A stretch of DNA of 64,000 nt, taken from sequence record OZ035762.1. One strand, 5' to 3'. The translations under genes and the position numbers were made by a program. Below are positions 56,600-63,585 of this stretch, piece by piece. The number at the start of each line of letters is the position of its first letter. The stretch's first letter is position 1. Under the pieces are notes generated by a model. That model made no database searches, had not been told where the DNA came from, and was given only the letters and a program-made list of their open reading frames with translations. This DNA is from Felixounavirus LF82P1.

Positions 56600-58015
56600 A
56601 TGAGCGAATTATTTAAACATGCGCACCTTCATGCAGGTCGAACTGAAAATGGTGCTGTAAACCATACTTCATCAATGTCTGCTCTTGTAGACTTTTACAA
56701 AGCTGCTGGTTCAAGCCGTAGCAATGTAGAAATCTTACCAGACCTGTTCTACAAAGCTTTGCGTGAGGATGTTGATGTTGCAGTTCGTATTTTACTGCAT
56801 ATGCGAGATGTACGAGAAGGTATGGGTGAGCGTAAAGCCTTCAGAACTGTTTTGCTTCAAGCAATTGAAGATAAAGTTTTAGAGCCTACACAGGTTCTTC
56901 GCATTATGGATAAGATTGCAGAACTTGGTCGTTTTGATGACTTCAAAATCTTCGTAGGTACTCGTTTCGAGACAGATGCCTTCAAACATTTAGAAGCAGC
57001 ATTACTAGACCCTGCAACAGCAGGTTTGGCAGCTAAGTGGTTACCACGAGTAAAACCACGTCACAAACAGTTTGTAAAACGTTTCTGCAAGTTTGCAAAC
57101 TTGAGTGAGAAGGAGTATCGCACACTGTTATCTGCACTGTCTGATACGGTTGAGCAAAAAATCTCTGCTAATGAGTTTGGTAAGATTGACTACAGTAAGA
57201 TTCCTTCACTTGCTGCTGCACGTTACCAAAAACTCTTTAACCGTAAAGATGGAGAACGCTACAAAGCTTACATTGAGTCCTTATCAAAGGGCGAGACTAA
57301 GATTAATGCTGGTGCTGTTTATCCATACGATGTGATTAAATCTGTTAAGTATGGTAATGCAGATGTTGCTAATGAGCAGTGGAAAGCACTACCAAACTGG
57401 ATGGCAGAGGGTGAAAACATTCTATGTATGTCTGATGTTTCAAGTTCAATGTCTTGGGTGAATTTTGGTTCAATTACTGCTCTTGATATTGGTGTTTCAC
57501 TTGCATTGTATGTAGCAGAACGTAATACAGGTTGCTTTAAGAATGAGTTGATGGTTTATTCAACAAACCCTCACTTCATTGAACTGAGTGGTGATTTACG
57601 AAACCGTCATCGTCAGGTGATGCGACACGTTGAATATGGCTCAACTAACTTACAAGCAGCTTTTGACCGTATTCTTGAGACAGGTAAAAGAAACAACTTG
57701 ACTCAGAAAGATATGCCAAGTAAGCTTATCATCTTCTCCGATATGGAGTTCAATCAGGTTGATGGAGCTAACGGTCGTACAAACTTTGAAGCAATTCAGA
57801 GTAAGTACAAAAAAGCTGGATATGAGATGCCACAACTGGTATTCTGGTACTTAGCAAACCGTAATGGTACTTGCGAAGTATCTGTTAAGGATAACGGTGT
57901 AGCAATGGTATCAGGGTTCTCTCCAGCCACTTTAAAAGCTCTGCTTGGTGGTGAGAAGTTTGACCCAATCAGTGTAATGCTCAAAGCAGTAATGATTGAC
58001 CGTTATATCTGGTAA
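56600..58015 (+). CDS. Ro60-like protein (TROVE-like N-terminus + von Willebrand A domain)
   Basis: 471 aa; C-terminal vWA MIDAS motif CMSDVSSSM then ..GSTN.. and ..FSDMEF..; N-terminal helical region resembling TROVE. Confidence 0.55.
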   Translation: MSELFKHAHLHAGRTENGAVNHTSSMSALVDFYKAAGSSRSNVEILPDLFYKALREDVDVAVRILLHMRDVREGMGERKAFRTVLLQAIEDKVLEPTQVLRIMDKIAELGRFDDFKIFVGTRFETDAFKHLEAALLDPATAGLAAKWLPRVKPRHKQFVKRFCKFANLSEKEYRTLLSALSDTVEQKISANEFGKIDYSKIPSLAAARYQKLFNRKDGERYKAYIESLSKGETKINAGAVYPYDVIKSVKYGNADVANEQWKALPNWMAEGENILCMSDVSSSMSWVNFGSITALDIGVSLALYVAERNTGCFKNELMVYSTNPHFIELSGDLRNRHRQVMRHVEYGSTNLQAAFDRILETGKRNNLTQKDMPSKLIIFSDMEFNQVDGANGRTNFEAIQSKYKKAGYEMPQLVFWYLANRNGTCEVSVKDNGVAMVSGFSPATLKALLGGEKFDPISVMLKAVMIDRYIW

Positions 58016-58180: not shown

Positions 58181-58257
58181 CTCTGTTTAGCTCAGCTTGG
58201 TAGAGCGTTCCGTTTGGGGCGGTAAGGCCGGAGGTTCAAGTCCTCCAACAGAGACCA
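58181..58257 (+). tRNA. tRNA-Pro (anticodon TGG)
   Basis: acceptor CTCTGTT/AACAGAG, anticodon loop TTTGGGG, T-arm GGAGG-TTCAAGT-CCTCC, CCA encoded. Confidence 0.8.
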
Positions 58258-58264
58258 AATTAAT

Positions 58265-58342
58265 GTTCCAGTAGACAAAATGGTATAGTCACCACTCTTT
58301 CAAAGTGGACATCTGAGGGTTCAAATCCCTTCTGGAACGCCA
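58265..58342 (+). tRNA. tRNA-Glu (anticodon TTC)
   Basis: acceptor GTTCCAG/CTGGAAC, anticodon stem CCACT/AGTGG loop CTTTCAA, T-loop TTCAAAT, CCA. Confidence 0.75.
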
Positions 58343-58344
58343 GT

Positions 58345-58425
58345 TTTGACAGAAGACCAAATACAGCAAACTTAATCTTATTCATCTGAAGGTAAATCGG
58401 ACAAAGAAGAGATTTGGTCTGGTCA
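58345..58425 (+). repeat. structured repeat copy 1 (AGACCAAAT ... ATTTGGTCT helix enclosing about 45-nt insert)
   Basis: 9-bp inverted repeat; conserved AGAAGACC..TACAGCAA box. Confidence 0.45.
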
Positions 58426-58433
58426 TTAAGAAT

Positions 58434-58510
58434 TGCGGGTATAGAGAAAGGGCGTCTCACATGTCTCATTAGCATGGTATCGGCAGGTTCGACTCCTGCA
58501 CCCGCCTCCA
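58434..58510 (+). tRNA. tRNA with anticodon CAT (Met/Ile-lysidine type), atypical acceptor
   Basis: D-stem GAGA/TCTC, anticodon stem CATGT/GCATG loop CTCATTA, T-arm GCAGG-TTCGACT-CCTGC, CCA; 1-72 pairing imperfect. Confidence 0.45.
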
Positions 58511-58583
58511 AATTTACAGAAGACCGTTTACAGCAACATTTATTAAATTTTTAGCGGAAAAATTGAAAGATACGGTCTGGTAA
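58511..58583 (+). repeat. structured repeat copy 2 (AGACCGT ... ACGGTCT helix)
   Basis: Box AAATTTACAGAAGACCGTTTACAGCAA identical to copy 4. Confidence 0.45.
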
Positions 58584-58593
58584 TACTAAACAT

Positions 58594-58670
58594 GGTTAGG
58601 AAGCACATAAGGTATGTGCGGTCGCCTGTTAAGCGAATGGCACAGGGTTCGAATCCCTGACTAACCGCCA
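58594..58670 (+). tRNA. tRNA-Asn (anticodon GTT)
   Basis: acceptor GGTTAGG/ACTAACC, D-stem GCAC/GTGC, anticodon loop CTGTTAA, T-arm CAGGG-TTCGAAT-CCCTG, CCA. Confidence 0.75.
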
Positions 58671-58739
58671 AATTTAGGAGAGAAGCGATTGCTCACCGAT
58701 TTGTAAGGTGCAAGTCCTTAGCCTGAATAGAAATTAAAT

Positions 58740-58827
58740 GTGTCGTTATCCCGTAGATGGTAGCGGTGGGGACTGTAAATCCCTTGTCATTGAGACTCGG
58801 TAGGTTCGACTCCTACACGGCACACCA
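58740..58827 (+). tRNA. tRNA-Tyr (anticodon GTA), long variable arm
   Basis: acceptor GTGTCGT/ACGGCAC, anticodon stem GGGGA/TCCCT loop CTGTAAA, variable arm about 15 nt, T-arm GTAGG-TTCGACT-CCTAC, CCA. Confidence 0.75.
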
Positions 58828-58832
58828 ATAAA

Positions 58833-58910
58833 GGTTATGTAGTTTAATTTGGTTAAAATACTCCCCTGTCACGGGAGATGATGAGGGTTCAAATCCCTTC
58901 GTAACCGCCA
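58833..58910 (+). tRNA. tRNA-Asp (anticodon GTC)
   Basis: acceptor GGTTATG/CGTAACC, anticodon stem CTCCC/GGGAG loop CTGTCAC, T-loop TTCAAAT, CCA. Confidence 0.8.
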
Positions 58911-58965
58911 ATTTTGAGAGGGCTATTTAGCCCCTCCCTTAAAGGGTTCTTACGAGTATCCTTTA

Positions 58966-59046
58966 AAGGAGCAGAAGACCAAATACAGCAAGTTACTTAA
59001 AATTTCAAGCCAATTTAATTTTGAAAAATTTAAAACTTGGTCTGGC
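58966..59046 (+). repeat. structured repeat copy 3 (AGACCAA ... TTGGTCT helix)
   Basis: Same conserved box AGAAGACCAAATACAGCAA; compensatory stem changes vs copies 2/4. Confidence 0.45.
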
Positions 59047-59051
59047 TCAAC

Positions 59052-59190
59052 AAATTTACAGAAGACCGTTTACAGCAAAACTTAAACAATCTATTTCTCG
59101 GTAAAGAAAAGGCGAAGGTTCGATTCCTTCACTCGGCAGATGTCGAGTTGGTGTAATGGTAGCACTTAAGATGATAAACAACGGTCTGGT
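59052..59190 (+). ncRNA. candidate Y-RNA-like element: terminal helix (AGACCGTT/AACGGTCT) enclosing a circularly permuted tRNA-like module
   Basis: Order T-arm GAAGG-TTCGATT-CCTTC (59114-59130), acceptor 3' ACTCGGC, 4 nt, acceptor 5' GTCGAGT (7 bp complementary), D-arm-like GGTGTAATGGTAGCAC; no anticodon arm. Confidence 0.35.
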
Positions 59191-59338
59191 AATTATCTTT
59201 GTAGATAAGTTATTAAGCTTACCTGTGAGTATGCGACCACAAAGGGTGAAAGGGTAAATTCTAGATTTAAACCCAAAAAGGCACATCGCTACAGACCTTA
59301 AGCAAGTCTGGGTAGCTTATCTACAAAGATAATTTAAT

Positions 59339-59414
59339 GGAAGTGTAGCAGAATGGTGATGCGGCAGACTTTTAATCTGACAGGCGATGGGTTCGAATCC
59401 CTCCACTTCTACCA
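59339..59414 (+). tRNA. tRNA-Lys (anticodon TTT)
   Basis: acceptor GGAAGTG/CACTTCT, anticodon loop CTTTTAA, T-loop TTCGAAT, CCA; paralog of Lys-CTT tRNA with compensatory anticodon-stem change. Confidence 0.7.
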
Positions 59415-59418
59415 ATAT

Positions 59419-59495
59419 GGTTCAGTCGCAGATAAGGTAATGCAAGGGTCTCATAAGCCCTATGAATGTGGGTTCGAATCCCATCTGAACCTCCA
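59419..59495 (+). tRNA. tRNA-Met (anticodon CAT)
   Basis: acceptor GGTTCAG/CTGAACC, anticodon stem AGGGT/GCCCT loop CTCATAA, T-arm GTGGG-TTCGAAT-CCCAT, CCA. Confidence 0.75.
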
Positions 59496-59497
59496 AT

Positions 59498-59572
59498 TGT
59501 GGGTTAGCATAAATGGTAATGCAAACGGCTGATAACCGTTAGAAGAGGGTTCGATACCCTCACCTACAACCA
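59498..59572 (+). tRNA. tRNA-Ile (anticodon GAT)
   Basis: acceptor TGTGGGT/ACCTACA, D-stem GCAT/ATGC, anticodon stem AACGG/CCGTT loop CTGATAA, T-arm GAGGG-TTCGATA-CCCTC, CCA. Confidence 0.75.
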
Positions 59573-59587
59573 AGTTCAATAAAGTTG

Positions 59588-59616
59588 TTGACATTGAGAT
59601 GTGACTACTTTATAGT
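59588..59616 (+). promoter_or_regulatory. sigma70-like promoter TTGACA-N17-TATAGT inside tRNA cluster
   Basis: Near-consensus -35 and -10 with 17-nt spacer. Confidence 0.55.
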
Positions 59617-59820
59617 AACCTTAGTTTTCGTTGCGTAGCGTCTATTTTGCAAATTTAAAATAAATGCAAACGACAATGTTTTTCTGGCAGTAGCTTGATA
59701 GGCTAAACACCAGTGAGGTCTTCCAATCCCTCATCAAAGAATTTGGCGTACTCGCCCACGGTATGATTAATAAGGTGGGCATCTTTAAGGGCTTTCTAAG
59801 AGAGTCTTTAAAGATAATTA

Positions 59821-59902
59821 CGGGGCGTATCTCAGCGGTCTTCTAAACCGCCGTTAACCGAGTAAGTGGAGTATGCGGGTTCGAGTCCTGCCGCCTCGAC
59901 CA
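59821..59902 (+). tRNA. atypical tRNA-like gene, anticodon loop CTTCTAA (TCT, Arg-type), D-arm apparently absent
   Basis: acceptor CGGGGCG/CGCCTCG, perfect anticodon arm GCGGT-CTTCTAA-ACCGC, T-arm GCGGG-TTCGAGT-CCTGC, CCA; only 7 nt between acceptor and anticodon stem, 23-nt region before T-arm. Confidence 0.4.
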
Positions 59903-60045
59903 ATTTAGTTAGCAGATTACTTAGACGACCTAAGCGGGTCTTCCTGTAGGGAGGTGGTCTGTATCTCATGTTTTCCAGAACATGTAAATAATCTGAGAAG
60001 GGGCTTTACAGTGTTGAGATAATACGGTAAGCTTCGAATTATAGT

Positions 60046-60128
60046 ATGGGACGATGTTAAGACTCTAAGGCATGAGCAACGGCCTCCAAAACCGTTTCAA
60101 AGGGGTTCAACTCCTCCGTCCCATGCCA
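60046..60128 (+). tRNA. tRNA-Trp (anticodon CCA), atypical extended D region
   Basis: acceptor ATGGGAC/GTCCCAT, anticodon loop CTCCAAA with stem ACGGC/ACCGT, T-loop TTCAACT, CCA; about 8 extra nt before D-stem. Confidence 0.45.
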
Positions 60129-60141
60129 AAGTCTTATTAGG

Positions 60142-60229
60142 GGTAGGTAGCGGCTAATGGCAGCCAAACAGTCTTGAAAACTGTTGCCACTGTAGAGATA
60201 CGGTGAGGGTTCGACTCCTTTACTTACCG
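60142..60229 (+). tRNA. tRNA-Ser (anticodon TGA), long variable arm
   Basis: acceptor GGTAGGT/ACTTACC, 3-bp D-stem, anticodon arm ACAGT-CTTGAAA-ACTGT, about 20-nt variable arm, T-loop TTCGACT; CCA not encoded. Confidence 0.7.
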
Positions 60230-60388
60230 CCTAATAAGATTTTTAAAGCCAAGCTTCATTCGGATGTTGCTTTGGTATCCCTCGTGTATTGTCGTACACA
60301 CTGATAAAACACCTAGTAGGTGTCACGGAGAAGAGATAATATCAAGCTCTCCAAAGGTTCTAGTCACCGGATTAAACAAGACTATGCA

Positions 60389-60412
60389 AAGACCTTTTAG
60401 GTCTTTTTAGAG
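60389..60412 (+). terminator. hairpin + T-run inside tRNA cluster spacer
   Basis: AAGACC-TTTT-AGGTCTT followed by TTTT. Confidence 0.4.
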
Positions 60413-60487
60413 GGCTTCTAAGGTTATTACAGCTTGTTGTGGAACCTTGTTGCTTAGGTTCTTAGAAGTTCTCTAAAAAGATTTAAT

Positions 60488-60565
60488 GGGAGATTGACGG
60501 TAATTGGTAAACCTATCTCGCTTAGAACGAGATGTTTGAGGGTTCGAATCCCTTGTCTCCTACCA
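60488..60565 (+). tRNA. tRNA with anticodon TAG (Leu by anticodon), short variable arm
   Basis: acceptor GGGAGAT/GTCTCCT, anticodon arm ATCTCG-CTTAGAA-CGAGAT, T-arm GAGGG-TTCGAAT-CCCTT, discriminator A, CCA. Confidence 0.6.
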
Positions 60566-60572
60566 AATTAAT

Positions 60573-60648
60573 GCAGGTGTAGCAAAATGGTTATGCGGCT
60601 GACTCTTAATCAGTAAGACGATGGGTTCAATTCCCTCCACCTGTACCA
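60573..60648 (+). tRNA. tRNA-Lys (anticodon CTT)
   Basis: acceptor GCAGGTG/CACCTGT, anticodon arm GCTGA-CTCTTAA-TCAGT, T-loop TTCAATT, CCA. Confidence 0.75.
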
Positions 60649-60654
60649 AACAAT

Positions 60655-60730
60655 GGGGTCATAGTTTATATGGTTAAAATTCGAGTTTTGCAAACTTGGG
60701 AACTGAGTTCAATTCTCAGTGACTCCACCA
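60655..60730 (+). tRNA. tRNA-Ala (anticodon TGC)
   Basis: acceptor GGGGTCA/TGACTCC (G3-U70), anticodon arm CGAGT-TTTGCAA-ACTTG, T-arm CTGAG-TTCAATT-CTCAG, CCA. Confidence 0.75.
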
Positions 60731-60736
60731 ATTAGT

Positions 60737-60811
60737 GCATCCATAGTTTAAACGGGAAAATTACAGTCTTCCAAACTGAGGTTGAGGGTTCGATTCCCTC
60801 TGGATGCTCCA
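60737..60811 (+). tRNA. tRNA-Gly (anticodon TCC)
   Basis: acceptor GCATCCA/TGGATGC, anticodon loop CTTCCAA, T-arm GAGGG-TTCGATT-CCCTC, CCA. Confidence 0.8.
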
Positions 60812-60825
60812 AATTAAGGTGTGAT

Positions 60826-61239
60826 ATGAAAATATGCAGTACTTGCAGAATACCAAAAGATGAAAGCTTATTCCATAAGAATAAGAACAAGAAAGACGGT
60901 CTTCAAAGTCAATGCAAAGATTGTGCAAGACTCCGTGATGCAAAGAGTTATCAAGCAAATGATAAAAGGAAAGAGGCTATTAAAAGCACTCGTAACTTCA
61001 AGAGAGAGCATAACAAGACTCTAGCTAGAAGGTACAAAGCTTTATGCAAATGTCATATATGTGGTGAGAAAGAACCAGTTGCACTGGATTTACACCATAC
61101 AGACCCTTCCCAGAAAGATTTGAATCCTGCATCACTTTATTCATACTCCACAAAAAGATTAAAAGATGAAATCAGAAAGTGCATTGTCTTGTGCGCTAAC
61201 TGTCACAGAAAAGTACATGCTGGTATCATAAAAGTTTAA
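60826..61239 (+). CDS. HNH homing endonuclease inserted in tRNA cluster
   Basis: 137 aa; CxxC..CxxC and HNH motif CHICG..LDLHH..CANCHRKVH. Confidence 0.65.
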   Translation: MKICSTCRIPKDESLFHKNKNKKDGLQSQCKDCARLRDAKSYQANDKRKEAIKSTRNFKREHNKTLARRYKALCKCHICGEKEPVALDLHHTDPSQKDLNPASLYSYSTKRLKDEIRKCIVLCANCHRKVHAGIIKV

Positions 61240-61240
61240 T

Positions 61241-61317
61241 GCTGCTTTCGTATAATTGGCTATTACACATCCCTTGTAAGGATGGAAATGCAGGTTCGAG
61301 TCCTGTGAGCAGCACCA
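61241..61317 (+). tRNA. tRNA-Thr (anticodon TGT)
   Basis: acceptor GCTGCTT/GAGCAGC, anticodon arm CATCC-CTTGTAA-GGATG, T-arm GCAGG-TTCGAGT-CCTGT, CCA. Confidence 0.8.
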
Positions 61318-61412
61318 ATTCAGAGGTCAAGTGAAAGACCGCTGGTGTCAACTGAAGACCGTAACAAATTCCACGGAGTTGAGTTAGCGGCACAACTTCA
61401 GACCTCTTTCAT
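61318..61412 (+). ncRNA. candidate structured RNA (about 95-nt imperfect rod-like hairpin) between tRNA-Thr and tRNA-Val
   Basis: Nested inverted repeats CAGAGGTCAAGT/ACTTCAGACCTCT, CCGCT/AGCGG, TCAACT/AGTTGA, CCGT/ACGG; contains GAAGACCGT box. Confidence 0.3.
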
Positions 61413-61487
61413 ACTCGCTTAGTTTATATGGTAAAACATCACCCTTACAAGATGAAGAAAAAGGTTCAAGTCCTTTAGTGAGTACCA
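61413..61487 (+). tRNA. tRNA-Val (anticodon TAC)
   Basis: acceptor ACTCGCT/AGTGAGT, D-stem GTTT/AAAC, anticodon loop CTTACAA, T-arm AAAGG-TTCAAGT-CCTTT, CCA. Confidence 0.7.
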
Positions 61488-61488
61488 T

Positions 61489-61566
61489 GTTCCAGTATCC
61501 CAATTGGCAGAGGATGCAAGCTCAAACCTTGTACTAGTGACGGTTCGAATCCGTCTTGGAACACCA
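61489..61566 (+). tRNA. tRNA with anticodon CAA (Leu by anticodon), short variable arm
   Basis: acceptor GTTCCAG/TTGGAAC, D-loop AATTGGCAG, anticodon arm GCAAG-CTCAAAC-CTTGT, T-arm GACGG-TTCGAAT-CCGTC, discriminator A, CCA. Confidence 0.6.
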
Positions 61567-61571
61567 ATTTT

Positions 61572-61647
61572 GCAGGATTAGTTCAAATGGATAGAGCAAC
61601 AGTCTACGAAGCTGTTAATAGGGGTTCGAATCCCTTATCCTGCGCCA
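61572..61647 (+). tRNA. tRNA-Arg (anticodon ACG)
   Basis: acceptor GCAGGAT/ATCCTGC, D-stem GTTC/GAGC, anticodon arm ACAGT-CTACGAA-GCTGT, T-loop TTCGAAT, CCA. Confidence 0.8.
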
Positions 61648-61666
61648 ATTTAAAGAGGCTATTTAG

Positions 61667-62224
61667 ATGAGATATTTGAAGTATGCTTCATGGATTTTCT
61701 TAGCTTTGTTAGAACCATTTGCAGCAATCTTAGCAGTTATCTTAGCACCTTTTGTAGTTCCATTTTACAGTGAGAAGAAAGGACACTTACCTTTCGGATT
61801 TAGATGGATGGAAACTTATGACAACCCAATTGATGGTGATGAAGGTCACGTTAAAAGATGGGCTAATATTAGATGGATTGGTAAGCTTGGTGTCTATATG
61901 CAGAGAGTCGGTTGGCTCTGGAGAAACAAAGCTTATAACTTCTCTTACCATGTGTTAGGAAGAGATGTAAAAGATGTTACTAAGTGGAAAGGTAATATCA
62001 ACGTAAGTTCTAACCCTGAAGATAATCAGACAGGTTATCTCCTAATGTGGAACAGCAATGCTTGGGGATTATTCGCTTTTATACCATCAATTAAAATCTT
62101 TGGTAAACAGTTCTACTGGAGAATTTATATTGGGTGGAAGCTAAAAAGTGTTGTCCCAGAAGAAAGAGCATTCTCAAGGGAAAGAGTTATGTTGGCATTC
62201 TTTATTCATCCACTAAGAAATTAA
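61667..62224 (+). CDS. hypothetical membrane protein
   Basis: 185 aa; N-terminal hydrophobic segments. Confidence 0.5.
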   Translation: MRYLKYASWIFLALLEPFAAILAVILAPFVVPFYSEKKGHLPFGFRWMETYDNPIDGDEGHVKRWANIRWIGKLGVYMQRVGWLWRNKAYNFSYHVLGRDVKDVTKWKGNINVSSNPEDNQTGYLLMWNSNAWGLFAFIPSIKIFGKQFYWRIYIGWKLKSVVPEERAFSRERVMLAFFIHPLRN

Positions 62225-62232
62225 AGATTTAA

Positions 62233-62308
62233 AGGGGATTAGTTTACAAGGTTAAAACCTCGGTCTTTGAAATCGAAGAAGTTGGTTCAATTCCAACATC
62301 CCCCGCCA
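62233..62308 (+). tRNA. tRNA-Gln (anticodon TTG)
   Basis: acceptor AGGGGAT/ATCCCCC with unpaired 1-72, D-stem GTTT/AAAC, anticodon arm TCGGT-CTTTGAA-ATCGA, T-arm GTTGG-TTCAATT-CCAAC, CCA. Confidence 0.7.
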
Positions 62309-62310
62309 AT

Positions 62311-62389
62311 GCTCCATTACTCCAATTGGCAGAGAGGCCAGACTTAAAATCTGTGTTATGTATCGGTTCGAATCCGATATGGAGTACCA
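62311..62389 (+). tRNA. tRNA with anticodon TAA (Leu by anticodon), short variable arm
   Basis: acceptor GCTCCAT/ATGGAGT, D-loop AATTGGCAG, anticodon loop CTTAAAA, T-arm ATCGG-TTCGAAT-CCGAT, discriminator A, CCA; paralog of CAA tRNA. Confidence 0.55.
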
Positions 62390-62394
62390 AATTT

Positions 62395-62470
62395 AGCGGT
62401 ATAGCATAACTGGCAATGCAACAGTCTCTGAAGCTGTCTTATTAAGGTTCAAATCCTTATGCCGCTGCCA
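62395..62470 (+). tRNA. tRNA-Gln (anticodon CTG)
   Basis: acceptor AGCGGTA/TGCCGCT, D-stem GCAT/ATGC, anticodon arm ACAGT-CTCTGAA-GCTGT, T-arm TAAGG-TTCAAAT-CCTTA, CCA. Confidence 0.7.
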
Positions 62471-62501
62471 CTTCTAAGGGTTCTTACGAGAGTCCTTAAA
62501 T

Positions 62502-62577
62502 GTGGCCTTATCATAAATGGTAATGACCCATGCTGTGAACATGGTCTATACGGGTTCAAATCCCGTAGGTCACCCCA
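62502..62577 (+). tRNA. tRNA-His (anticodon GTG)
   Basis: acceptor GTGGCCT/AGGTCAC, D-stem TCAT/ATGA, anticodon arm CCATG-CTGTGAA-CATGG, T-arm ACGGG-TTCAAAT-CCCGT, discriminator C, CCA. Confidence 0.8.
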
Positions 62578-62583
62578 ATTTAT

Positions 62584-62659
62584 AGTCCAAGTAGCTTATA
62601 TGGTTAAAGCGCGTGTCTGAAAAACATGAGAAGAGGGTTCAAATCCCACTGGACTACCA
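62584..62659 (+). tRNA. tRNA-Phe (anticodon GAA)
   Basis: D-stem GCTT/AAGC, anticodon arm CGTGT-CTGAAAA-ACATG, T-loop TTCAAAT; acceptor boundaries uncertain by 1-2 nt. Confidence 0.6.
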
Positions 62660-62675
62660 ATTTCAAAGGTGCTTA

Positions 62676-63410
62676 ATGAAAGAGATGACAGAACAAGGTA
62701 AGGAGATTTTTAATCTCTTAAAAACCGGTAAAGGGTTTTCTAACCCACTTATTACTGGTGCAGCAGTTCTCGGTGGAACCGTAGCTGCTTCTACATCACT
62801 TGTAAGCTCTATTAGTTCTGTAACAGACCCTACAATGCAGGAGAAACTTGTTGCTGCTGGACTTACAACAGTCCTTCTAAACAGCTTTACAACAAGCCTT
62901 ACAAGCACTACAGCAACTACTAAAACTCTGACAGACTACGGTCAAAAGTCTATTGATGAGTTTTCATCACGTATGCAGGTAGCAAAGGGGTATTCCAATG
63001 TTATGGGTGCAGCAGGAGAACAAGTTGGTTGTACACCATTCAGTGGTATCATGGGTGTTGCTACAGAGTATGGTCAAAAAGCTATTGACATGATGAACAG
63101 TACACTAGATAGTGTTAATGGTGTGTTAAGTGACTTACAAGATGCTATTGATAAGGGTCTTGATACTGTTTCTGATTTAGCTAATCAGGCTGTTAGTAAG
63201 ATTAATGAAGGTATTTCAAAGATTACAGCTTATGCAGATGAAGTTGTGCAGATGATTGAAGAAGAAGCTTCCCTTATTGCAGAGTACCTTAAAACGAATA
63301 TCAATGGGTTCTTAGCAGGTATCTTACCAGACTGGTTTGATGATGCCTGTAAAACTGGTGTGATTGACACTATTGCAACACCAGAAATGAAGAGCGCATT
63401 ACAGAAATAA
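62676..63410 (+). CDS. hypothetical Ser/Thr-rich protein
   Basis: ORF track 62613 trimmed to first ATG downstream of tRNA-Phe (AAGGTG RBS-like). Confidence 0.5.
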   Translation: MKEMTEQGKEIFNLLKTGKGFSNPLITGAAVLGGTVAASTSLVSSISSVTDPTMQEKLVAAGLTTVLLNSFTTSLTSTTATTKTLTDYGQKSIDEFSSRMQVAKGYSNVMGAAGEQVGCTPFSGIMGVATEYGQKAIDMMNSTLDSVNGVLSDLQDAIDKGLDTVSDLANQAVSKINEGISKITAYADEVVQMIEEEASLIAEYLKTNINGFLAGILPDWFDDACKTGVIDTIATPEMKSALQK

Positions 63411-63412
63411 AT

Positions 63413-63505
63413 GGAAGATTAACCCTAAAAGGTAAGGGAGCAGTTTGCTAAACTGCCAGTAGCTGAGAAATCGGTGTACCAGTTCAAGTCTGGTATCTTC
63501 CTCCA
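63413..63505 (+). tRNA. tRNA-Ser (anticodon GCT), long variable arm
   Basis: acceptor GGAAGAT/ATCTTCC, 3-bp D-stem, anticodon arm GCAGT-TTGCTAA-ACTGC, long variable arm, T-arm ACCAG-TTCAAGT-CTGGT, CCA. Confidence 0.8.
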
Positions 63506-63509
63506 ATTT

Positions 63510-63585
63510 GAATCCGTGACAGAAATGGCTATGTGCCTGTCTGCAAAACAGGTTTATAAGGGTTCGAGTCCCTTCGGATTCTCCA
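63510..63585 (+). tRNA. tRNA-Cys (anticodon GCA)
   Basis: acceptor GAATCCG/CGGATTC, anticodon arm CCTGT-CTGCAAA-ACAGG, T-arm AAGGG-TTCGAGT-CCCTT, CCA. Confidence 0.8.

What the first reader, a model, noticed from the sequence alone, without database searches (positions are those of the whole stretch)
60488..62389. Three tRNAs with leucine anticodons (TAG, CAA, TAA) but short variable arms
The tRNAs at 60488-60565, 61489-61566 and 62311-62389 fold into class I cloverleaves with 5-8 nt variable regions, although cellular tRNA-Leu is class II with a long variable arm. All three have discriminator A73, the major LeuRS identity element. The CAA and TAA genes are clear paralogs sharing a D-loop (AATTGGCAGAG). 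Either this phage encodes class I-shaped leucine tRNAs, or these decode Leu codons with another identity.
Basis: partly seen in the sequence, partly recalled or inferred. Interest (0 to 1): 0.5.

Follow-up and report, generated by a model that had tools for sequence, protein, structure and literature searches.

The report
Phage leucine tRNAs lacking the long arm
This Felix O1-like phage carries three conserved leucine tRNA genes that lack the long extra arm found in bacterial leucine tRNAs, and the same short form occurs in many unrelated phages, although a recent review says it exists only in animal mitochondria.

Summary
The window is Felixounavirus LF82P2. ARAGORN and Rfam both place tRNA-Leu(UAG), (CAA) and (UAA) at the stated coordinates as short cloverleaves with variable loops of 5, 6 and 7 nt. 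E. coli's five tRNA-Leu species are 85-87 nt, with arms of about 13-15 nt.

The phage tRNAs keep the rest of the E. coli leucine identity set:
- A73, U8:A14 and A15:U48;
- a 3-bp D stem with an 11-nt AAUUGGYARA loop;
- a canonical T loop.

They are nearly invariant across about 260 relatives, with compensatory changes in the anticodon stem. The most likely reading is functional leucine tRNAs charged by the host LeuRS. Charging was not tested.

The short form is not peculiar to this phage. It occurs in 93 IMG/VR contigs and in isolates infecting Mycobacterium, Streptomyces, Cronobacter, Aeromonas, Lactobacillus, Erwinia and Prochlorococcus. It is commoner in viral than cellular DNA (20/109 vs 5/107). 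Phage Ser and Tyr tRNAs keep their arms.

I found no paper describing this. It is a new member of a known kind, of moderate interest.

A stranger tRNA-like gene (UCU anticodon, no D arm) lies nearby at 59821-59899.

The parts
60488..60565 (+). tRNA-Leu(UAG), 78 nt including CCA. Acceptor stem is 7 bp (G1.U72, U7.G66), followed by a 3-nt connector TGA. D stem is CGG/CCT (C.U plus 2 bp) with loop TAATTGGTAAA. Anticodon loop is CTTAGAA, with A37 rather than G37. Discriminator is A73.
   Evidence: ARAGORN; Rfam 44.5 bits; the minimum-free-energy fold is a class I cloverleaf; parse.
60533..60537 (+). Variable loop of tRNA-Leu(UAG): TGTTT, 5 nt, ending in U48.
   Evidence: E. coli leuW has a 13-nt arm at this position by my reading of the sequences.
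61489..61566 (+). tRNA-Leu(CAA), 78 nt including CCA. D stem is TCC/GGA (3 bp) with C13.A22 and loop CAATTGGCAGA. Anticodon loop is CTCAAAC. Discriminator is A73.
   Evidence: ARAGORN; Rfam 43.6 bits; parse.
61533..61538 (+). Variable loop of tRNA-Leu(CAA): ACTAGT, 6 nt, ending in U48.
   Evidence: The only difference from most relatives is C to T inside this loop.
62311..62389 (+). tRNA-Leu(UAA), 79 nt including CCA. D stem is CTC/GAG (3 bp) with loop CAATTGGCAGA. C27.U43 is a mismatch. Anticodon loop is CTTAAAA. Discriminator is A73.
   Evidence: ARAGORN; Rfam 47.5 bits; at least 99% identical in 215 of 263 phage records.
62355..62361 (+). Variable loop of tRNA-Leu(UAA): GTTATGT, 7 nt, ending in U48.
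58181..63585 (+). tRNA gene cluster of 25 ARAGORN tRNAs in which the three Leu genes sit. Tyr (88 nt) and the two Ser tRNAs (90 and 93 nt) keep long variable arms.

Best explanation
These are three functional, phage-encoded leucine tRNAs. They read UUA/UUG (UAA), UUG (CAA) and CUA/CUG (UAG) during infection and are charged with leucine by the host's own LeuRS.

Structurally each is a bacterial class II tRNA-Leu body with the long variable arm cut down to a 5-7 nt loop. They retain the 3-bp D stem, the 11-nt AAUUGGYARA D loop, A15:U48, U8:A14 and A73.

This works because bacterial (E. coli-type) LeuRS reads A73 and the D/T-loop elbow and core, not the arm. The arm is therefore dispensable for leucine identity and can be lost in compact, fast-evolving phage genomes. 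The arms of tRNA-Ser and tRNA-Tyr cannot be lost in the same way.

**Shown:** shape, retention of the identity elements, strong conservation and covariation, wide distribution in phages, and restriction of arm loss to Leu.

**Inferred:** charging by host LeuRS, use on the ribosome, and relaxed constraint as the reason for arm loss.
For: **Shape.** ARAGORN and the Rfam covariance model agree on short variable loops.

**Identity elements.** Compared with the five E. coli K-12 tRNA-Leu species, the phage tRNAs have the same D-arm architecture, U8, A14, A15, G18G19, A20a, U48, a TTCGAAT T loop and A73. These match the E. coli LeuRS determinants listed in PMC9976931. [quoted passage not shown]

**Isotype scoring.** tRNAscan-SE isotype scores for the Sf14 orthologues are highest for Leu: 67.4, 49.1 and 60.2 (PMC12482277).

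**Purifying selection.** The UAA tRNA is at least 99% identical in 215 of 263 records. The surrounding 2.6 kb reaches that level in only 2 of 257 records.

**Compensatory change within Ounavirinae.**
- The UAG anticodon stem is TCTCG/CGAGA in the window, CCTCG/CGAGG in Si3 and CCATC/GTTGG in Sf13 and SUSP1.
- In Mijalis and BPS15Q2 the same slot holds a different tRNA-Leu(UAG) that is also class I.

**Family-wide covariation.** Across 117 distinct class I Leu tRNAs, stems pair in 92-100% of sequences against 41-98% after shuffling, with 1-6 (mostly 4-6) pair types per position. 13.22 is never Watson-Crick, U8:A14 holds in 112/117 and A15:U48 in 115/117.

**Restriction to Leu.** In 1,775 viral tRNAs, short variable regions occur in 134/292 Leu, 1/128 Ser and 0/49 Tyr.

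**Codon usage.** Among leucine codons, the phage uses UUA 24.5% and CUA 11.8% of the time, and CUG only 15.9%.
Against: No charging or expression data exist for these tRNAs.

E. coli LeuRS did not leucylate the only studied prokaryotic type I tRNA-Leu, S. coelicolor CAA. The authors describe EcLeuRS as charging only type II tRNA-Leu (PMC6614811). That tRNA has C48 rather than U48.

Crystal structures show LeuRS C-terminal residues touching the variable arm (PMC12360207).

The UAG tRNA has a 3-nt 8/9 connector and a D-stem mismatch. tRNAscan-SE labels or omits it in some records.

A37 in the UAG tRNA and C38 in the CAA tRNA depart from the host anticodon loops.

Relaxed constraint does not by itself explain why loop lengths cluster so tightly at 5 nt (108 of 134), or why several isoacceptors in one phage are usually all short.
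Confidence: 0.75

Rival explanations
1. Arm loss is adaptive rather than merely tolerated. The short form would let phage tRNA-Leu escape a host or competitor factor that recognises class II tRNA-Leu through its long arm, such as a tRNA nuclease or modifying toxin. Alternatively it would prevent cross-recognition by SerRS or TyrRS. The tRNAs would still be charged with leucine.
For: - Variable-loop length is sharply bimodal: 108 of 134 short forms have exactly 5 nt, and few are intermediate.
- Short Leu tRNAs are enriched in viral versus cellular DNA: 20/109 against 5/107, Fisher p=0.002.
- Where one Leu tRNA in a locus is short, 61 of the 96 other Leu tRNAs in those loci are short too.
- A different class I tRNA replaced the UAG slot in some relatives.
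- Phage tRNAs are known to escape anticodon nucleases through sequence changes (PMC10264068, PMC12445682).
- A37 replaces G37 in 62/107 viral CUN-reading Leu tRNAs but in only 5/43 cellular ones, and in 1/38 cellular class II ones.
Against: No bacterial defence is known to select tRNA-Leu by its long arm; none appeared in the papers read. Phage Ser and Tyr tRNAs keep their arms. T5 carries a class II tRNA-Leu and still infects the same hosts. The clustering within genomes may simply reflect duplication after a single loss.
Confidence: 0.2
2. The tRNAs carry leucine anticodons but are charged with another amino acid, or are deliberately mischarged.
For: They lack the class II arm. EcLeuRS failed on the S. 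coelicolor type I tRNA-Leu. For the Sf14 UAG orthologue, the Ile2 and Lys isotype scores (65.7 and 63.4) are close to the Leu score (67.4).
Against: - Synthetases other than LeuRS, SerRS and AlaRS rely on anticodon bases that these tRNAs lack (established knowledge; PMC9976931).
- None has G3.U70: the 3:70 pairs are G:C, U:A and U:A.
- None has a long arm or G73, as serine identity would need.
- All keep the leucine-specific D loop, A15:U48 and A73.
- Leu is the top isotype score for all three orthologues.
- Host tRNA-Leu reads the same codons, so a different identity would scramble about half of the phage's leucine positions.
Confidence: 0.04
3. They are decaying or non-translational tRNA-like genes, such as pseudogenes, decoys for nucleases, or processing signals in the tRNA operon.
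For: tRNAscan-SE calls the UAG gene a pseudo-tRNA in Si3 and misses it in pEC-M719-6WT.1. CAA/TAA chimeras with imperfect acceptor stems exist in Si3 and FG1m, so these genes can be lost. The Rfam scores are the lowest among the class I tRNAs of the cluster.
Against: The genes are nearly invariant across hundreds of genomes while the flanks diverge. Compensatory substitutions keep the stems paired. Acceptor stems are intact and A73-CCA is encoded. All three anticodons are conserved in the related genera Suspvirus and Mooglevirus; Kolesnikvirus (SunLIRen) also has three short Leu tRNAs but with CAA, AAG and UAA.
Confidence: 0.05

Closest known systems
E. coli / enterobacterial class II tRNA-Leu (leuQPV, leuU, leuW, leuX, leuZ)
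   Same: Same anticodons (UAG, CAA, UAA). Same A73, U8:A14 and A15:U48. Same 3-bp D stem with an 11-nt NAAUYGGUAGA-type loop, same T loop, and encoded CCA.
   Different: The host tRNAs have a long variable arm and total 85-87 nt (about 13-15 nt, by my reading of the sequences). The phage tRNAs have a 5-7 nt loop and total 78-79 nt. The phage UAG tRNA has A37 where the host has G37, and the phage CAA tRNA has C38 where the host has A38.
Type I tRNA-Leu(CAA) of Streptomyces coelicolor (PMC6614811)
   Same: A prokaryotic tRNA-Leu with a 5-nt variable loop (ACAGC) that coexists with type II tRNA-Leu and a single LeuRS. The loop resembles the ACAGT/CCAGT loops common in the phage family.
   Different: It is chromosomal, not phage-encoded. 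It has C48 rather than U48. It is charged by a Streptomyces LeuRS through its leucine-specific domain and was not charged by E. coli LeuRS. Whether the phage tRNAs share ancestry with it was not tested.
Animal mitochondrial tRNA-Leu(UUR/CUN)
   Same: Leucine tRNAs without the long arm, recognised mainly through A73 and A14 (PMC9976931).
   Different: They are degenerate organellar tRNAs with a dedicated mitochondrial LeuRS. The phage tRNAs have canonical D/T-loop elements and must rely on a bacterial LeuRS.
Class II tRNA-Leu of model coliphages (T5 tRNA-Leu(UAG), 85 nt)
   Same: Phage-encoded, located in a tRNA cluster interspersed with HNH endonuclease genes, with A73 and CCA.
   Different: T5 keeps a 13-nt variable arm. 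The T5 relative Aeromonas phage AhP_Mru1 (Demerecviridae) has the short form.
Engineered minimalist E. coli tRNA-Leu lacking the anticodon and variable arms (Larkin et al. 2002, as summarised in PMC9976931)
   Same: It shows that E. coli LeuRS can leucylate arm-less tRNA-Leu provided A73 and the D/T-loop tertiary contacts are kept. The phage tRNAs keep exactly these.
   Different: Those are laboratory constructs assayed in vitro. These are natural genes under selection. I could not read the primary paper.

Membership tests
tRNA (Rfam RF00005) | Covariance-model score above the gathering threshold of 29 bits | tested here: met
   44.5, 43.6 and 47.5 bits, with full-length model matches 1-71. 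ARAGORN also calls all three.
Bacterial tRNA-Leu (E. coli LeuRS identity set) | Discriminator A73 | tested here: met
   A precedes the encoded CCA in all three. It is A in 127/134 viral short Leu tRNAs.
Bacterial tRNA-Leu (E. coli LeuRS identity set) | Tertiary pairs U8:A14 and A15:U48 | tested here: met
   U8, A14, A15 and U48 are present in all three by sequence. They hold in 112/117 and 115/117 family members. Whether the pairs actually form was not tested.
Bacterial tRNA-Leu (E. coli LeuRS identity set) | Leucine-type D arm: 3-bp stem, non-Watson-Crick 13.22, and an 11-nt loop with G18G19 and A20a in register | tested here: met
   The loops are CAATTGGCAGA (twice) and TAATTGGTAAA, against NAATYGGTAGA in the five E. 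coli species. The UAG tRNA deviates, with a C.U mismatch in the stem, a possible U13:A22 pair, and an extra connector base.
Bacterial tRNA-Leu (E. coli LeuRS identity set) | T-loop elements U54, U55, C56 and A58 that build the elbow | tested here: met
   The T loop is TTCGAAT in all three.
Bacterial tRNA-Leu (class II) | Long variable arm (more than 10 nt, stem-loop) | tested here: not met
   The loops are 5, 6 and 7 nt. This is the point of the finding. The arm defines the structural class but is reported not to be a determinant for E. coli LeuRS.
Bacterial tRNA-Leu | Leucine anticodon and top tRNAscan-SE isotype score for Leu | tested here: inconclusive
   The anticodons UAG, CAA and UAA are confirmed. 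Isotype models could not be run here. Published scores for the Sf14 orthologues put Leu first for all three. The Sf13 sequences, whose three anticodon loops match those the paper lists for Sf14, differ from the window by 1 nt (CAA), 1 nt (UAA) and the anticodon stem (UAG).
Bacterial tRNA-Leu | Aminoacylation with leucine by LeuRS | not testable with these tools
   Needs a charging assay or charge-sensitive tRNA sequencing.
Type I (short-arm) tRNA-Leu, as in S. coelicolor and animal mitochondria | Leucine anticodon with a variable loop of about 5 nt | tested here: met
   The S. coelicolor loop is ACAGC.
Type I (short-arm) tRNA-Leu, as in S. coelicolor and animal mitochondria | Common descent with the Streptomyces or mitochondrial genes | not tested
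   Short tRNA-Leu(UAA) genes nearly identical to viral ones occur in Gordonia and Herbiconiux genomes. No phylogeny was made.

The most novel reading that the evidence does not exclude
Phages infecting many bacterial phyla have repeatedly replaced the class II tRNA-Leu with a hybrid: a class II D arm and core combined with a 5-nt variable loop. Ordinary bacterial LeuRS enzymes, including those of E. coli and Salmonella, would charge this form in vivo. That would contradict both the view that EcLeuRS accepts only type II tRNA-Leu and the review statement that tRNA-Leu has a long arm everywhere except animal mitochondria. In the strongest form of this reading, the short form is selected because it escapes a host factor that recognises tRNA-Leu through its long arm.
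Probability: 0.2. Interest if true: 0.7.

Novelty: new member of a known kind. Interest (0 to 1): 0.5.

Why it matters
[quoted passage not shown] The only prokaryotic exception studied biochemically is in Streptomyces, and E. coli LeuRS failed to charge that tRNA (PMC6614811).

If the Felix O1-type tRNAs are charged in E. coli and Salmonella, three things follow:
- Enterobacterial LeuRS accepts natural arm-less substrates.
- The LeuRS identity model (A73 plus the elbow and core) is confirmed by a large natural experiment. Phages lose the Leu arm but not the Ser or Tyr arms.
- Hundreds of natural short tRNA-Leu scaffolds become available for tRNA engineering, and for testing whether arm loss helps phages escape tRNA-directed defences.

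The question is directly testable in easy systems such as Felix O1, the BASEL felixounaviruses, and E. coli LeuRS.

On the other hand, the genes have been annotated as tRNA-Leu since 2010, and their likely role, supplying readers for UUA, UUG and CUA, is conventional.

Tried and rejected
**Thermodynamic folding.** It gives the cloverleaf only for UAG. CAA and UAA misfold, with z-scores of about -1.5. I treated this as uninformative for unmodified AT-rich tRNAs and relied on ARAGORN, the covariance model and comparative data.

**Literature.** Nine full-text searches found no paper describing short-arm tRNA-Leu in phages. None of the following mentions it:
- the Felix O1 genome paper;
- the Sf14 tRNA study;
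- the phage-tRNA immune-evasion papers.

The library lacks most subscription journals, so absence is weak evidence. The primary paper on minimalist tRNA-Leu (PMC115294) is not held.

**Defence evasion.** I looked for a nuclease specific to the tRNA-Leu arm in papers on Retron-Kva2, bacterial Schlafen and P2-OLD. None shows recognition of the arm.

**Sampling bias.** The first viral scan required class I spacing, so it cannot give a frequency. I repeated it with a gap wide enough for both classes, in viral and in cellular collections. The D-loop motif was part of the search pattern, so its conservation in that sample is not independent evidence. The BLAST-found isolates partly remedy this.

**G3.U70 in the neighbouring UCU tRNA-like gene.** I first read it as a possible alanine identity element. 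I rejected that because it is not conserved across the family.

**Not done.** I made no phylogeny to count independent arm losses, and I did not scan the window's proteins for an aminoacyl-tRNA synthetase.
Full report
**1. What the window is**

The stretch 60100-62700 is 100% identical to Felixounavirus LF82P2 (OZ035741.1) and 97.7% identical to Salmonella phage Felix O1. In all, 257 phage records match it. The finding lies in a cluster of 25 tRNA genes at 58181-63585, all on the + strand. Small ORFs are interspersed:
- an HNH endonuclease at 60826-61239;
- a DUF7338 membrane protein at 61667-62224;
- a DUF7217 protein at 62613-63410.

**2. Checking the observation**

ARAGORN reports tRNA-Leu(tag) at 60488-60565, tRNA-Leu(caa) at 61489-61566 and tRNA-Leu(taa) at 62311-62389. 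They are 78, 78 and 79 nt long including an encoded CCA, and ARAGORN draws all three with short variable regions. The Rfam tRNA model matches them at 44.5, 43.6 and 47.5 bits, well above the gathering score of 29. Its alignment shows only 1-4 inserted bases in the variable region.

An anchor-based parse gives variable loops TGTTT (5 nt), ACTAGT (6 nt) and GTTATGT (7 nt), and a discriminator A followed by CCA in each. Neighbouring tRNAs lie only 1-7 nt away, so no longer gene can be hidden there.

In the same cluster Tyr is 88 nt and the two Ser tRNAs are 90 and 93 nt, so these have long arms. The five E. coli K-12 tRNA-Leu species are 85-87 nt; by my reading of those sequences their arms are about 13-15 nt.

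CAA and UAA share the D arm CCAATTGGCAGAG and are reciprocal best matches among the 25 tRNAs, at 73% identity against 71% for the next best. Deletions by recombination between them have produced chimeras in phages Si3 and FG1m. They are paralogues, although the overall margin is small.

**3. Anatomy**

The three tRNAs are not ordinary class I cloverleaves. They keep the D arm of bacterial class II tRNA-Leu. This consists of a 3-bp D stem, a non-Watson-Crick 13.22 (C.A in CAA and UAA), and an 11-nt loop. The loops are CAATTGGCAGA, CAATTGGCAGA and TAATTGGTAAA, against NAATYGGTAGA in all five E. coli species.

They also have U8, A14, A15, G18G19, A20a, U48 as the last base of the variable loop, a TTCGAAT T loop and A73. 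In effect each is a tRNA-Leu with only the arm removed.

The UAG tRNA is the least regular. It has a 3-nt connector (TGA) after the acceptor stem, G1.U72 and U7.G66 wobble pairs, and a C.U mismatch at the base of the D stem. This probably explains why tRNAscan-SE annotation calls it 'pseudo' in Si3 and omits it in pEC-M719-6WT.1.

**4. Are they functional?**

*Conservation.* The UAA tRNA is at least 99% identical in 215 of 263 phage records. The surrounding 2.6 kb reaches that level in only 2 of 257 records; most are 90-99% identical.

*Compensatory change.* The UAG anticodon stem is TCTCG/CGAGA in the window, CCTCG/CGAGG in Si3, and CCATC/GTTGG in Sf13, SUSP1, FG1m and pEC-M719. In Mijalis and BPS15Q2 the same slot holds an unrelated tRNA-Leu(UAG) that is also short (77 nt, variable loop TCAGT).

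*Wider family.* I analysed 117 distinct short Leu tRNAs (section 6). Every stem position pairs in 92-100% of sequences, against 41-98% after shuffling, with 1-6 (mostly 4-6) pair types per position. 13.22 is essentially never Watson-Crick. U8:A14 holds in 112/117 and A15:U48 in 115/117.

These patterns are not those of pseudogenes.

**5. Which amino acid?**

According to the identity review PMC9976931, E. coli leucine identity rests on:
- A73;
- the A15-U48 pair;
- G18G19 and A20a;
- the elbow pairs G18:U55, G19:C56 and U54:A58.

The review states that the long arm's sequence and folding do not correlate with leucylation. It also reports that truncated tRNA-Leu lacking the anticodon and variable arms is still charged, provided A73 and the D/T contacts are intact. 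The phage tRNAs keep all of these elements.

They lack G3.U70 (alanine), and they lack a long arm and G73 (serine). Their anticodons do not match those that anticodon-reading synthetases require.

For the orthologues in the related phage Sf14, published tRNAscan-SE isotype scores are highest for Leu in all three cases (67.4, 49.1 and 60.2; PMC12482277). The Sf13 sequences, whose three anticodon loops match those the paper lists for Sf14, differ from the window by one base (CAA), one base (UAA) and the anticodon stem (UAG).

Among leucine codons in the phage's ORFs, UUA is 24.5%, UUG 14.3%, CUA 11.8% and CUG 15.9%. From established knowledge, E. coli uses CUG for about half of its leucines and CUA for about 4%. 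The three anticodons therefore serve codons the phage uses heavily.

Leucine identity is thus well supported but not demonstrated. Three points weigh against it:
- E. coli LeuRS failed to charge the type I tRNA-Leu(CAA) of S. coelicolor (PMC6614811). That tRNA has C48 rather than U48.
- Structures show LeuRS C-terminal residues contacting the arm (PMC12360207).
- The UAG tRNA has A37 where the host has G37, and the CAA tRNA has C38 where the host has A38.

**6. How general is it?**

*First viral scan.* I scanned IMG/VR with a pattern that joins the Leu-type D loop, an NAR anticodon and the T loop at class I spacing. It hit the 120-locus limit. ARAGORN on those loci plus those of a second scan gave 1,775 tRNAs.

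*Variable-region lengths.* Leu is bimodal: 134 genes at 5-8 nt (108 of them exactly 5 nt) and 158 at 9 nt or more. The short genes comprise 118 distinct sequences from 93 contigs; the 120 loci of the first scan range from 29 to 65% G+C. By contrast only 1 of 128 Ser and 0 of 49 Tyr are short.

*Frequency estimate.* Because the first scan forced class I spacing, I repeated it with a gap wide enough for both classes. Among matching Leu tRNAs, about 20 of 109 were short in viral contigs against 5 of 107 in one-genome-per-species bacterial contigs (Fisher p=0.002). The viral count of 20 is reconstructed: 1 short Leu in the 94 new loci, plus 19 in the first 26 loci of the earlier scan, which I assumed were the ones re-found. 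Both scans were truncated at 120 rows and share my pattern's bias, so these are rough proportions.

*Cultured phages with the short form.*

| Phage | Group or host |
|---|---|
| Felixounavirus, Suspvirus, Mooglevirus, Kolesnikvirus | Ounavirinae |
| Aeromonas phage AhP_Mru1 | Demerecviridae |
| Lactobacillus phage LpeD | Herelleviridae |
| Mycobacterium phage Koguma | Bixzunavirus; three Leu genes of 74-76 nt |
| Streptomyces phage NootNoot | Streptomyces |
| Cronobacter phage CR3 | Cronobacter |
| Prochlorococcus phage P-SSM7 | Prochlorococcus |

BLAST with two family members finds 314 and 211 phage records. The hits I checked are annotated tRNA-Leu, with a few exceptions (one tRNA-Met, one tRNA-Lys) among the weaker ones. 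T5 itself has a class II tRNA-Leu of 85 nt.

A few cellular genomes, such as Gordonia and Herbiconiux, carry short tRNA-Leu(UAA) genes nearly identical to viral ones.

**7. Mechanism proposed**

*Shown:* the arm is missing, everything else that E. coli-type LeuRS is reported to read is present, and the genes are under selection.

*Inferred:* the host LeuRS charges them with leucine and they decode UUR and CUA/CUG.

For why the arm is lost, the best-supported idea is relaxed constraint. Of the three bacterial class II families, only in Leu is the arm not an identity determinant, and only Leu loses it in phages. The serine arm is described as the major identity element in PMC9976931.

Two features hint that more than neutral erosion may be at work: the tight preference for exactly 5 nt, and the tendency for all Leu isoacceptors of a phage to be short. 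An adaptive reading, such as escape from a factor that recognises the long arm, cannot be excluded. I found no evidence for such a factor.

**8. Comparison with what is known, and novelty**

Short-arm tRNA-Leu is known from animal mitochondria and from one Streptomyces gene. [quoted passage not shown] PMC6614811 calls the Streptomyces LeuRS the only prokaryotic LeuRS able to charge both types.

The Felix O1 genes have been annotated as tRNA-Leu since 2010. Neither that paper, nor the Sf14 tRNA study, nor any other paper my searches retrieved comments on their shape.

I therefore rate this a new member of a known kind. It is not a new type of molecule, but it is an under-recognised, widespread and easily testable exception. 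Subscription literature was not searchable, so prior description cannot be excluded.

**9. Side observation**

At 59821-59899 Rfam, but not ARAGORN, reports a weak tRNA match of 31.7 bits. This is the slot where Suspvirus and Mooglevirus relatives carry a canonical tRNA-Arg(UCU).

*Layout.* In order along the sequence:
- a 7-bp acceptor stem;
- the bases TAT;
- only CTC-A where a D arm should be;
- an anticodon arm with loop CUUCUAA;
- CGTTAACC-GAG;
- a D-loop-like stretch, TAAGTGGAGTAT;
- a normal T arm, then A73 and CCA.

*Distribution.* It is 82-100% identical in 262 phage records of unrelated groups: Felixounavirus, Sugarlandvirus, the jumbo phage PBECO4, Justusliebigvirus and Mydovirus. 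In the records I opened it carries no tRNA annotation and is at most overlapped by protein-coding genes.

*Covariation.* In 39 distinct sequences, all stems covary. CTC/GAG also covaries (CGC/GCG, CTT/AAG, CAC/GTG, CAGC/GCTG, CATC/GATG). Overall, 94.9% of cells are paired against 65.4% after shuffling, and the three core pairs of this helix are paired in every sequence.

*Reading.* A helix therefore encloses the anticodon arm. The element is either a D-armless tRNA with an extended anticodon arm, or a tRNA whose D-arm strands are permuted around the anticodon arm. [quoted passage not shown] This element deserves its own follow-up and may be more novel than the assigned finding.

Noticed in passing
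window 59821-59902 (+); homologues in L355-L358 and L359-L414: A conserved tRNA-like gene with anticodon UCU and no conventional D arm. Its layout is acceptor stem, TAT, CTC-A, anticodon arm (loop CUUCUAA), CGTTAAYC-GAG, a D-loop-like TAAnYGGAGTAT, T arm, A/G73 and CCA. The CTC/GAG helix enclosing the anticodon arm is supported by covariation in 39 distinct sequences. Rfam finds it at 31.7 bits but ARAGORN misses it. It carries no tRNA annotation in the GenBank records I opened. It occurs in 262 phage records of unrelated groups and sits in the tRNA-Arg(UCU) slot of related phages.
   Followed up: partly
window 60523-60527 (anticodon and position 37 of tRNA-Leu(UAG)); loci L006-L339: The CUN-reading tRNA-Leu(UAG) has A37 instead of G37, the base that carries m1G37 in bacterial tRNA-Leu. 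A37 occurs in 62/107 viral NAG-anticodon Leu tRNAs but in only 1/38 cellular class II ones. Phage CUN readers may thus often do without TrmD methylation.
   Followed up: partly
L345 (Mijalis) 2066-2142, L348 (BPS15Q2), L346 (Sf13), L347 (Si3), L341 (FG1m), compared with window 60488-60565: The tRNA-Leu(UAG) slot is polymorphic among Ounavirinae. There are three anticodon-stem variants linked by compensatory changes, and in Mijalis and BPS15Q2 a wholly different short tRNA-Leu(UAG). Si3 and FG1m carry CAA/UAA chimeric genes that arose by deletion between the paralogues, with loss of the intervening Arg and Gln tRNAs.
   Followed up: partly
L233 (Gordonia sp.), L257 (Herbiconiux sp.), L338, L265, L287: Short-arm tRNA-Leu genes (UAA or CAG) occur in a few bacterial genome contigs. 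The actinobacterial UAA genes are solitary and nearly identical to genes on viral contigs such as L095. Whether they are native, as in S. coelicolor, or of prophage origin was not examined.
   Followed up: no
loci L006-L219 (viral contigs): Viral tRNA-Leu genes also include intermediate variable regions of 9-12 nt, such as AATTTAAAT and TCTTCGGGT. There are 34 of these. None shorter than 11 nt occurred among the long-arm Leu genes of the cellular sample. This suggests the arm shrinks in phages.
   Followed up: no
window 56600-58015 (+): A 471-aa ORF immediately upstream of the tRNA cluster matches DUF2828 and DUF7788 and has a DxSxS-like motif. Its homologue in phage FG1m is annotated as 'RNA-binding protein'. 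A link to the tRNA cluster is possible but was not examined.
   Followed up: no
window 60826-61239, 61667-62224, 62613-63410 (+): Protein genes are interspersed in the tRNA cluster: a weak HNH endonuclease match (17.4 bits, below the Pfam cutoff), a DUF7338 membrane protein and a DUF7217 protein. The HNH gene is absent from some relatives, which accounts for the 84% coverage class.
   Followed up: no
window 58434-58510 and 58740-58827: ARAGORN's tRNA-Met(cat) at 58434 and tRNA-Tyr at 58740 did not reach the Rfam gathering score. The Felix O1 paper lists their orthologues with low Cove scores, and the Tyr gene as 'pseudo'. Several tRNAs in the cluster have unusual discriminators, for example T73 in both Met tRNAs.
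   Followed up: no
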